DNA from: a virus | Lineage: Duplodnaviria; Heunggongvirae; Uroviricota; Caudoviricetes | Length of the DNA stretch: 15,856 bases | IMG/VR virus record: IMGVR_UViG_2529292836_000010 | Direction: 5' to 3' (one strand) | Part shown: positions 6,482 through 6,868 of the stretch, one piece after another | Position numbering within the stretch: position 1 is the first letter of the stretch | Layout: each line of letters opens with the position of its first letter | The notes under the pieces: model-generated | Databases searched by the model: none | The model's input: only the letters and a program-made list of their open reading frames with translations | Told to the model about the DNA's origin: nothing | Program-made: the position numbers and the translations under genes

Positions 6482-6868
6482 ATGTTTCTGAAACAGGGCA
6501 CGTTTAATTATGAAAAACAGTCCGTGGTGCTCAGTGAGCTGTCCGGGCTGCAGAGAATTGAATATCTGGCGTTTGTTCAGCAGCGAACGGCAAAGTTTGA
6601 TGCCGGGGAGGGAGAACTGCCGGAGGCTGAACGACAGATTGCTTTTCTGCGGATGGGGATGGATATCAATGCCTGGCTGGTTTCCCGCTCACTGTGGAAT
6701 GCGGATCAGTCTAAGGATGTAGAGACGCTTTGCGCATCCGTTATTACAACATGGTCGTATGATGCCCTGGGTGCGGGGGCGGAGATGGTTCTGTCGCTGA
6801 GCGGTATGGGGGCCATTGATAATGCCGGGGATGATGAGCATGAGGCGCTGACGCCGGAAAAGTCCTGA
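6482..6868 (+). CDS. G: Tail assembly chaperone G-like (128 aa)
   Basis: Begins MFLKQGTFNYEKQSVVLSELSGLQRIEYLA.., close to recalled lambda gpG (MFLK..VTLSELSALQRIEHLA). GGAG at 6472-6475 precedes ATG 6479/6482. The track start 6440 overlaps the terminator and is rejected. Confidence 0.8.
   Translation: MFLKQGTFNYEKQSVVLSELSGLQRIEYLAFVQQRTAKFDAGEGELPEAERQIAFLRMGMDINAWLVSRSLWNADQSKDVETLCASVITTWSYDALGAGAEMVLSLSGMGAIDNAGDDEHEALTPEKS

What the first reader, a model, noticed from the sequence alone, without database searches (positions are those of the whole stretch)
6844..6868. G/GT frameshift site appears to be a one-base variant (GGAAAAG) of the lambda heptamer
The overlap of the two frames forces the -1 shift into the last 7 codons of G, where the only candidate is G GAA AAG rather than the lambda G GGA AAG. 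P-site re-pairing would need a G.U pair, so the efficiency, and with it the G:GT ratio that governs tail assembly, may differ from lambda's roughly 4 percent. Alternatively this is another single-base error in the assembly.
Basis: partly seen in the sequence, partly recalled or inferred. Interest (0 to 1): 0.5.

Follow-up and report, generated by a model that had tools for sequence, protein, structure and literature searches.

The report
Common GGAAAAG tail-chaperone frameshift site
The GGAAAAG at the end of tail gene G is real and is the usual ribosome slip site that joins G to T in lambda-like phages, so it is neither an assembly error nor a rarity, and phage N15's database record already annotates it.

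Summary
G (6479-6868) and the -1-frame T ORF overlap only in 6844-6868. The only re-pairable site there is G GAA AAG (6856-6862). It lies at the position homologous to lambda's G GGA AAG.

It is not an assembly error. All 123 independent contigs sharing the flanks have A, none G. The exact 61-nt context occurs in 575 complete E. coli genome records. The window has no indel against its closest phage anywhere in 224-11717.

It is not unusual. In 72 non-redundant G/T loci from more than 20 enterobacterial genera, the A_AAR codon sits exactly 12 codons before the conserved T motif. GGAAAAG accounts for 55 of the 72 and lambda's GGGAAAG for 6. The N15 GenBank record annotates GGAAAAG as its slippery sequence.

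Best mechanism: tandem -1 slippage. tRNA-Lys moves from AAG to AAA. tRNA-Glu moves from GAA to GGA with a middle-position G.U pair. I found no conserved downstream structure and no family-wide enrichment of an upstream Shine-Dalgarno-like sequence.

Efficiency is unmeasured. A published in vitro study used this heptamer as its poorly slippery control, so a GT:G ratio lower than lambda's is plausible.

Verdict: already known, low to moderate interest.

The parts
6479..6868 (+). Gene G, the tail assembly chaperone (129 aa plus stop); this is the 0 frame.
   Evidence: The ORF and its translation are. Pfam PF06894 Phage_TAC_2 matches at E 1.8e-39. Relatives annotate it as minor tail protein G.
6841..6843 (+). 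TGA stop in the -1 (T) frame; it sets the 5' limit of the region where a shift can occur.
   Evidence: Translation of the -1 frame and the script.
6844..6868 (+). Overlap of the open -1 frame with the 3' end of G. This is the only place where a -1 shift yields a G-T fusion.
   Evidence: The same 25-nt overlap is present in mEp460, PhiR47_1 and Ayreon.
6856..6862 (+). Shift heptamer G GAA AAG. GAA (Glu) would be the P-site codon and AAG (Lys) the A-site codon.
   Evidence: Read. All 123 flank-anchored contigs have this base. It sits at the homologous position in all 72 non-redundant loci, and 55 of them are GGAAAAG. The same heptamer is annotated as the slippery sequence in N15.
6862..7206 (+). 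T part of the GT fusion in the -1 frame (114 aa, VLTREMQF...GPDSQPGH, plus stop). The predicted GT is 128 + 114 = 242 aa.
   Evidence: Translation. Pfam PF06223 Phage_tail_T matches at E 5e-15. The invariant residue E5 lies upstream of the first possible start codon, the ATG at 6877.
6842..6845 (+). GAGG, a Shine-Dalgarno-like tetramer 10 nt upstream of the heptamer. It is a candidate stimulator only and is not supported by the family comparison.
   Evidence: Its duplex energy with the anti-SD is -5.6 kcal/mol, against -7.0 for the dnaX element by the same calculation. There is no enrichment at this distance compared with control distances across the 72 loci.
6442..6459 (+). Terminator-like hairpin followed by a T run, between the tail tube gene V and G (context only).
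   Evidence: Found. It is annotated as a rho-independent terminator in mEp460 and as a putative one at the same place in N15.

Best explanation
This is the programmed -1 ribosomal frameshift site of a lambda-type tail assembly chaperone gene pair, in an mEp460/cdtI-like lambdoid phage or prophage.

Most ribosomes read G to its stop at 6866-6868 and make gpG. A small fraction slip one base back when GAA occupies the P site and AAG the A site. tRNA-Lys re-pairs from AAG to AAA. tRNA-Glu (anticodon UUC) re-pairs from GAA to GGA, with Watson-Crick pairs at codon positions 1 and 3 and a G.U pair at position 2. Translation then continues in the T frame and gives a 242-aa G-T fusion.

By analogy with lambda, the fusion would link the tape-measure protein to the tail tube protein during tail assembly.

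The heptamer acts without a conserved RNA stimulator. Its efficiency is probably lower than lambda's, where the G:GT ratio is about 30:1.

What is shown: the anatomy, the homology, the conservation of the position and of the synonymous bases, and the absence of a conserved stimulator. What is inferred: that slippage actually occurs, its two-tRNA mechanism, and its efficiency.
For: Gene identities and order are V-G-T-H.

Position and heptamer type:
- The shift position is homologous to lambda's.
- In 72 non-redundant loci the A_AAR codon lies exactly 12 codons before the conserved A(R/H)E-F motif of T.
- The heptamers are GGAAAAG 55, GGGAAAG 6, AGAAAAG 3, GGTAAAG 3, AAAAAAG 2, GGCAAAA 2 and GGGAAAA 1.

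Synonymous positions are held:
- The Lys codon is AAG in 69 of 72 sites, against 38% AAG elsewhere in the same genes.
- The Glu codon is GAA in 58 of 58 sites, against 55% elsewhere.
- The codon before GAA varies (GCG, CCG, CTG, TTG, ACG, GTG) but ends in G in 55 of 58. Elsewhere, G-ending codons make up 28-55% for those amino acids.
- A held G at heptamer position 1 is what P-site re-pairing to GGA requires.

T has no conserved start codon. The first possible start falls at T residue 24, 10, 6, 23, 9 and others. The invariant E5, F8 and L12-A-R-E lie upstream of it in most loci.

The N15 record annotates GGAAAAG as 'slippery sequence for -1 translational frameshift'.

G_GA-type first codons are recognised non-canonical shift motifs (PMC5009743).
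Against: No measurement of frameshifting at this heptamer in a phage context was found.

In a reconstituted E. coli system, G GAA AAG gave mainly 0-frame product at all EF-G concentrations (PMC6924986).

Sites where only the A-site tRNA re-pairs cleanly are barely above background without a stimulator: 0.147% against 0.112% in PMC4066793.

I found no conserved stimulator. The downstream fold has z-scores of 0.0 and -0.7. The consensus fold energy is -1.5 kcal/mol with no covarying pairs. SD-like sequences are not enriched at the stimulatory distance.

Three Morganella loci have A, not G, at heptamer position 1, so P-site re-pairing is not absolutely required.
Confidence: 0.85

Rival explanations
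1. Assembly or sequencing error: the true sequence is lambda's GGGAAAG and one base was miscalled.
For: The window does carry many single-base indels elsewhere. There are 56 gap openings against PhiR55_1, all within 11718-14772.
Against: A pattern anchored on the flanks with N at the variable base returned A in all 123 matches from independent contigs, and G in none. The exact 61-nt context occurs in 575 complete E. coli genome records. Seventeen phage records are 97.7-99.6% identical across G-T. There is no indel in window 224-11717. The same heptamer is found in more than 20 genera.
Confidence: 0.01
2. There is no frameshift. T is made as a free protein by initiation or termination-reinitiation at ATG 6877, 8 nt after the G stop, as the GenBank records of mEp460 and relatives annotate it.
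For: An ATG lies at 6877 close to the G stop. mEp460, PhiR47_1 and RefSeq E. coli annotations list T as a separate CDS.
Against: The start codon is not conserved. Fels-1, at 59% identity, has Leu there, and across the family the first possible start ranges from T residue 1 to 24. The invariant E5 and the conserved residues 1-5 are encoded upstream of 6877. The -1 arrangement and the A_AAR site at a fixed distance are conserved in all 72 loci. The only purine-rich stretch upstream, GGGA, ends about 2 nt before the ATG (read from the sequence).
Confidence: 0.06
3. Single-tRNA slippage: only tRNA-Lys slips on A_AAG, as at the NNA_AAG hexanucleotide sites such as B. subtilis cdd CGA_AAG. The P-site tRNA-Glu does not re-pair, so the G at heptamer position 1 plays no part in the shift.
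For: The only element invariant across the family is A_AAR. P-site codons GTA, GCA and A-preceded GAA, which cannot re-pair well, also occur. Such sites are documented (PMC5009743).
Against: G at position 1 is kept in 55 of 58 GAA-type loci across six different preceding codons, well above the background use of G-ending codons. The poorly re-pairing variants all carry a possible helper. Either the 0-frame stop lies immediately 3' of the heptamer, or a strong SD-like GGGGAGGA lies upstream. These helper cases are few and related, so this is a pattern rather than a test.
Confidence: 0.2
4. The weak heptamer is boosted by the upstream Shine-Dalgarno-like GAGG (6842-6845), 10 nt 5' of the site, as in dnaX and cdd. 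This would restore a lambda-like ratio.
For: GAGG sits at the spacing that stimulates -1 shifting. Its duplex energy with the anti-SD is -5.6 kcal/mol, against -7.0 for the dnaX element by the same calculation. Close relatives have GAGGTG or AAGGAGGTG at the same place. The mean SD energy dips at offsets 6-10.
Against: The best SD energy in the -5 to -14 interval is no better than in control intervals. The mean is -3.72, against -3.55, -3.31, -3.23 and -2.82, and the counts below -6 and -4 kcal/mol are the same as in one control. The large N15-type group has nothing there. The acidic C-terminus of G generates GAG-G throughout.
Confidence: 0.12

Closest known systems
Phage lambda G/GT programmed -1 frameshift (G GGA AAG; Levin, Hendrix and Casjens 1993, as cited in PMC5009743)
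   Same: Homologous G and T domains (PF06894, PF06223). The gene order V-G-T-H is the same. The shift position is the same relative to T, and the A-site AAG is the same. No conserved flanking stimulator was found here.
   Different: The P-site codon is GAA (Glu) instead of GGA (Gly), so re-pairing is near-cognate with a middle G.U pair. G ends 1 codon after the site instead of 5. T is 114 aa instead of 144 aa and lacks the second GGVR(F/Y)G repeat.
Phage N15 genes 14/15 (NC_001901), with a misc_feature 'slippery sequence for -1 translational frameshift'
   Same: The heptamer GGAAAAG is identical and lies at the homologous position of a homologous G/T pair.
   Different: The proteins are only about 35-45% identical. 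N15 has GCG before the heptamer and 5 codons after it. The records of the window's own clade (mEp460, cdtI) do not annotate the shift.
NNA_AAG hexanucleotide and A_AAG tetranucleotide -1 shift sites (B. subtilis cdd CGA_AAG, IS1222; described in PMC5009743 and PMC4066793)
   Same: tRNA-Lys slips from AAG to AAA while the preceding tRNA cannot re-pair cognately.
   Different: Those sites depend on SD-like or pseudoknot stimulators for appreciable levels. None is conserved here. Here, position 1 of the heptamer is also conserved.
G_GAN_NNN non-canonical heptamers of RNA viruses (insect-specific flaviviruses, some umbra- and dianthoviruses, mesoniviruses; listed in PMC5009743)
   Same: The first part of the motif is G_GA rather than X_XX.
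   Different: Those act on eukaryotic ribosomes, use different A-site codons, and (from my own knowledge) generally have strong 3' RNA structures.
E. coli dnaX A_AAA_AAG with an upstream SD and a downstream stem-loop
   Same: The A-site codon is AAG, read by the single E. coli tRNA-Lys. A GAGG lies at a dnaX-like distance upstream.
   Different: No downstream hairpin is present, and the SD-like element is not supported as conserved. dnaX shifts at a much higher frequency (about 80% in PMC6787027), whereas lambda's G:GT ratio is about 30:1.

Membership tests
Lambda-type G/GT tail assembly chaperone frameshift | Two small ORFs lie between the major tail tube gene and the tape-measure gene. | tested here: met
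   V is at 5603-6421 (PF16461). G is at 6479-6868. T runs to 7206. H is the ORF 7148-10234 (PF06791, PF09718); relatives annotate its start at a position that maps to window 7178.
Lambda-type G/GT tail assembly chaperone frameshift | The upstream ORF is homologous to gpG and the downstream ORF to gpT. | tested here: met
   PF06894 matches at E 1.8e-39 and PF06223 at E 5e-15. tblastn with the fused GT finds lambda at 35% identity over 98% of the query.
Lambda-type G/GT tail assembly chaperone frameshift | The downstream ORF is in the -1 frame and overlaps the 3' end of the upstream ORF. | tested here: met
   The -1 frame is open from 6844 and the G stop is at 6866-6868. The same arrangement holds in all 72 non-redundant loci.
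Lambda-type G/GT tail assembly chaperone frameshift | A canonical X_XXY_YYZ slippery heptamer lies in the overlap. | tested here: not met
   G_GAA_AAG is not X_XX at positions 1-3. It departs from the canonical form by one base, at the homologous position. The family itself mostly uses this non-canonical form (55 of 72), so the strict motif is not a good defining feature.
Lambda-type G/GT tail assembly chaperone frameshift | T has no independent, conserved translation start. | tested here: met
   The first start codon in the T frame varies from residue 1 to 24 among loci, and invariant residues lie upstream of it. In this window an ATG exists at residue 6, so free T cannot be excluded for this clade.
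Lambda-type G/GT tail assembly chaperone frameshift | A GT fusion protein is produced at a few percent of G and is required for tail assembly. | not testable with these tools
   This needs protein detection or genetics. No published measurement for a GGAAAAG phage was found in the held library.
dnaX/IS-type stimulated -1 frameshift signal | A stable downstream hairpin or pseudoknot lies 5-9 nt after the motif. | tested here: not met
   The minimum-free-energy z-scores are 0.01 and -0.72 against shuffles. The consensus fold of 24 diverse GGAAAAG loci has an energy of -1.5 kcal/mol with 0 covarying pairs.
dnaX/IS-type stimulated -1 frameshift signal | A conserved SD-like sequence lies 6-17 nt upstream of the motif. 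| tested here: inconclusive
   GAGG is present at 10 nt in the window and its close relatives. The family-wide frequency at this distance equals that at control distances.
A_AAG single-tRNA (tetra- or hexanucleotide) shift sites | The motif is A_AAG, with tRNA-Lys able to re-pair to AAA in the -1 frame. | tested here: met
   A AAG lies at 6859-6862. AAG is kept in 69 of 72 loci, against 38% AAG elsewhere in the same genes.

The most novel reading that the evidence does not exclude
The lambda G/GT family overwhelmingly uses a heptamer that biochemists treat as a poorly slippery control. One of two things would then be true. Either these phages assemble tails with a GT:G ratio far below lambda's 1:30. 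Or GGAAAAG shifts at lambda-like levels in vivo through something not captured by current rules. Examples would be a special tolerance of tRNA-Glu (mnm5s2U34) for a middle-position G.U pair in the P site, or help from the nearby 0-frame stop codon, which lies 0, 1 or 5 codons after the site in all 72 loci.
Probability: 0.3. Interest if true: 0.45.

Novelty: already known. Interest (0 to 1): 0.25.

Why it matters
For this window the finding matters mainly as annotation. G and T should be joined as a -1 frameshift product at 6856-6862, and the base should not be 'corrected' to the lambda sequence.

More broadly, lambda, the textbook example, carries the minority heptamer of its own family. The majority form, GGAAAAG, is the sequence used as an unfavourable control in a mechanistic study. 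No in vivo efficiency for it was found in the papers I could search. A simple reporter comparison of GGAAAAG and GGGAAAG in native context would show how much P-site mispairing costs in vivo. It would also show how tightly the chaperone ratio really needs to be set.

Tried and rejected
1. Assembly error: rejected.

2. Downstream stimulatory RNA structure: single-sequence folds are no better than shuffles. The consensus fold of 24 diverse loci is empty.

3. Upstream SD-like stimulator: a position profile suggested a dip at offsets 6-10. A like-for-like comparison of 10-nt intervals showed no enrichment over control intervals, so I treat it as unsupported.

4. An 8-nt complement, CGCCGGAA (6853-6860) with TTCCGGCG (6904-6911), would bury the heptamer. 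I saw no counterpart in the N15 sequence, and I did not pursue it.

5. Transcriptional slippage: a run of four A is much shorter than the runs known to cause RNA polymerase slippage in E. coli. This rests on established knowledge and was not tested.

6. Literature: Xu, Hendrix and Duda 2004 and Licznar et al. 2003 are not held. The PRFect supplement holds none of the four search terms (GGAAAAG, N15, twofour, NC_001901). Full-text searches for GGAAAAG with phage, tail or slippery terms returned only PMC6924986. I therefore could not see how the closed literature describes this variant, beyond the N15 GenBank feature.

7. The viral-contig scan with the T alignment returned only near-identical loci (98-100% identical T). 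Diversity came from the genome-contig scan.

Full report
WHAT IS THERE

The window is the head-tail module of an mEp460/cdtI-like lambdoid phage or prophage of E. coli. The G-T region (6440-7210) is 97.7-99.6% identical to 17 phage records, including mEp460, Tritos, cdtI and Ayreon. The whole window aligns at 97.5% to phage PhiR55_1.

Pfam assigns the genes as follows:
- a lambda-family portal protein;
- a ClpP-protease/capsid fusion;
- tail proteins Z and U;
- tail tube protein V (5603-6421);
- G (6479-6868, PF06894, E 1.8e-39);
- a -1-frame T ORF (PF06223, E 5e-15);
- the tape-measure protein H;
- then M and L.

G ends ...HEALTPEKS* with its TGA at 6866-6868. The -1 frame is closed by TGA at 6841-6843 and is then open to the stop at 7204-7206. 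A -1 shift that fuses G to T must therefore occur in 6844-6868.

Among the seven sense codons there (GCG CTG ACG CCG GAA AAG TCC), only AAG can re-pair cognately one base back, to AAA. GAA can re-pair partly, to GGA. The bare heptamer is not rare in the window, with 6 copies against 2.2 expected. Frame, position and conservation are what count.

NOT AN ERROR

A search of viral contigs used the flanks with N at the disputed base (CTGACGCCGGNAAAGTCCTGACGC). Together with three phage records, all 123 matches have A and none has G, across many different upstream contexts.

The exact 61-nt context occurs in 575 complete E. coli genome records. A close match occurs in 1,824 of 5,426 genomes.

Against PhiR55_1 the window has no indel anywhere in 224-11717. 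The same comparison shows 56 gap openings, nearly all 1-nt deletions in the window, confined to 11718-14772. These fuse K and I into one 422-aa ORF and fragment J. That problem does not touch G/T.

HOW COMMON IS THE VARIANT

A tblastn search with the fused GT protein found 196 phage records. I read the site in a spread of them:
- GGAAAAG is present in Fels-1, Eeyore, mEp213, an Enterobacter Ravinvirus, HK225, Kp4865-4 and N15.
- GGGAAAG is present in lambda and two Stx/lambda-like phages.
- AAAAAAG is present in two Stx phages.

I then scanned one genome per species with a T-domain alignment. After removing duplicates and many copies of lambda DNA present as contamination, this gave 72 non-redundant contexts from more than 20 enterobacterial genera.

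In all 72, an in-frame A_AAR lies exactly 12 codons upstream of the conserved A(R/H)E-F motif of T. The heptamers are GGAAAAG 55, GGGAAAG 6, AGAAAAG 3, GGTAAAG 3, AAAAAAG 2, GGCAAAA 2 and GGGAAAA 1. So GGAAAAG is the family's normal heptamer and lambda's is the exception.

The N15 GenBank record carries a misc_feature 'slippery sequence for -1 translational frameshift' at 10027-10033. Those bases read GGAAAAG. The variant is therefore already on record. The records of the window's own clade simply list G and T as separate genes.

MECHANISM

Synonymous positions are constrained in the way a tandem slip predicts:
- Lys is AAG at 69 of 72 sites, against 38% AAG elsewhere in the same genes.
- Glu is GAA at 58 of 58 sites, against 55% elsewhere.
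- The codon before GAA changes identity (GCG, CCG, CTG, TTG, ACG, GTG) yet ends in G in 55 of 58. Background use of G-ending codons for those amino acids is 28-55%.

These counts are not phylogenetically independent, so I treat them as consistent evidence and not as a probability.

A G at heptamer position 1 lets tRNA-Glu (anticodon UUC) pair with GGA through G:C, G.U and A:U. PMC6924986 describes this as a second-position mismatch.

T lacks a conserved start. The first possible start codon ranges from T residue 1 to 24. The invariant E5, F8 and LARE lie upstream of it in most loci. This argues that T is reached from G.

I therefore commit to the following mechanism: -1 tandem slippage on G_GAA_AAG producing a 242-aa GT. 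The slippage itself and its two-tRNA nature are inferences.

STIMULATORS

None is supported.
- The 88 nt after the site fold no better than shuffles (z 0.01). A 101-nt stretch spanning the site (6820-6920) gives z -0.72.
- The consensus fold of 24 diverse GGAAAAG loci has an energy of -1.5 kcal/mol and no covarying pair.
- The window has GAGG 10 nt upstream, a dnaX-like spacing. Close relatives have GAGGTG or AAGGAGGTG there.
- Across the 72 loci, however, the best anti-SD pairing in the -5 to -14 interval is the same as in control intervals. The acidic tail of G makes such motifs everywhere.

One pattern is worth noting but rests on few, related sequences. The heptamers with the poorest P-site re-pairing all have a possible helper:
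- GGCAAAA, AGAAAAG and GGGAAAA have the 0-frame stop immediately after the heptamer.
- The Pantoea GGTAAAG loci have GGGGAGGA upstream, at -10.9 kcal/mol.

EFFICIENCY

Efficiency is unmeasured.
- Lambda's G:GT ratio is about 30:1 (PMC5009743).
- In a reconstituted system, G GGA AAG slipped readily when EF-G was limiting, whereas G GAA AAG gave mainly 0-frame product at all concentrations (PMC6924986).
- In E. coli reporters, motifs where only the A-site tRNA re-pairs were barely above background without a stimulator, and A_AAG reached 5.6% only with a pseudoknot (PMC4066793).
- Even canonical heptamers without a stimulator were at most about ten-fold over a 0.055% background in that reporter. 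Context clearly matters.

COMPARISON WITH WHAT IS KNOWN, AND VERDICT

By homology, gene order, frame arrangement and site position, this is a member of the lambda G/GT frameshift family. It fails only the strict X_XXY_YYZ rule, and most of the family fails that rule too.

Mechanistically it sits between canonical heptamers and the NNA_AAG hexanucleotide sites. It belongs with the G_GA-type non-canonical motifs listed in PMC5009743.

It is real, ordinary for its family and already annotated in N15, so I score it as already known. The residual interest is that the family's preferred heptamer is one that mechanistic work treats as unfavourable, while its in vivo efficiency appears not to have been reported in the literature I could search.

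Noticed in passing
window 11718-14772: There are 56 gap openings, almost all 1-nt deletions in the window, relative to the closest phage PhiR55_1. There are none in 224-11717. They fuse K and I into one 422-aa ORF (11277-12545; JAB + NlpC/P60 + Lambda_tail_I) and break J into fragments (12616-13167, 13427-14098 and others). Either this is a poorly polished region, perhaps because the sequence is shared among lambdoid prophages, or it is real gene decay.
   Followed up: partly
window 6442-6459: A GC-rich hairpin followed by a T run lies between tail tube gene V and G. It is annotated as a rho-independent terminator in mEp460 and as a putative one at the same place in N15. It may lower expression of G, T and H relative to V.
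   Followed up: no
L124-L135 and the 72-locus set: T length tracks heptamer type. GGAAAAG always goes with a short T (110-118 aa). GGGAAAG mostly goes with a long T (144-152 aa), which in the three long-T proteins I read (lambda, Stx2a_EH0474, PhiR12_1) carries a second copy of the C-terminal GGVR(F/Y)G motif.
   Followed up: partly
L144, L146, L148-L150, L190; L185, L187, L189: The heptamers with the poorest P-site re-pairing co-occur with possible helpers. GGCAAAA, AGAAAAG and GGGAAAA have the 0-frame stop codon immediately 3' of the heptamer. The Pantoea GGTAAAG loci have GGGGAGGA about 11 nt upstream. In all 72 loci the 0-frame stop lies 0, 1 or 5 codons after the site.
   Followed up: partly
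window 1770-3989: A single 739-aa ORF combines a ClpP-type protease domain and a major capsid domain (PF00574 + PF25209). Relatives annotate it as protease/scaffold or Nu3.
   Followed up: no
window 6853-6860 and 6904-6911: CGCCGGAA, which overlaps the heptamer, has a perfect 8-nt complement (TTCCGGCG) 44 nt downstream. The two pair in the predicted fold. I saw no counterpart in the N15 sequence.
   Followed up: partly
L192-L204, L212, L214, L215 (genome contigs): G/T DNA identical to lambda's turns up on short, low-coverage contigs in assemblies of unrelated organisms, including Neobacillus, Pseudomonas, Kitasatospora, Shewanella and Enterococcus. This is most likely lambda control DNA contaminating those assemblies.
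   Followed up: no
window 6848-6854 and 6865-6871: CTGACGC occurs on both sides of the heptamer. It encodes Leu-Thr in the G frame before the site and Leu-Thr in the T frame after it. Fels-1 partly keeps it, as CTGAC. This is probably coincidental.
   Followed up: no
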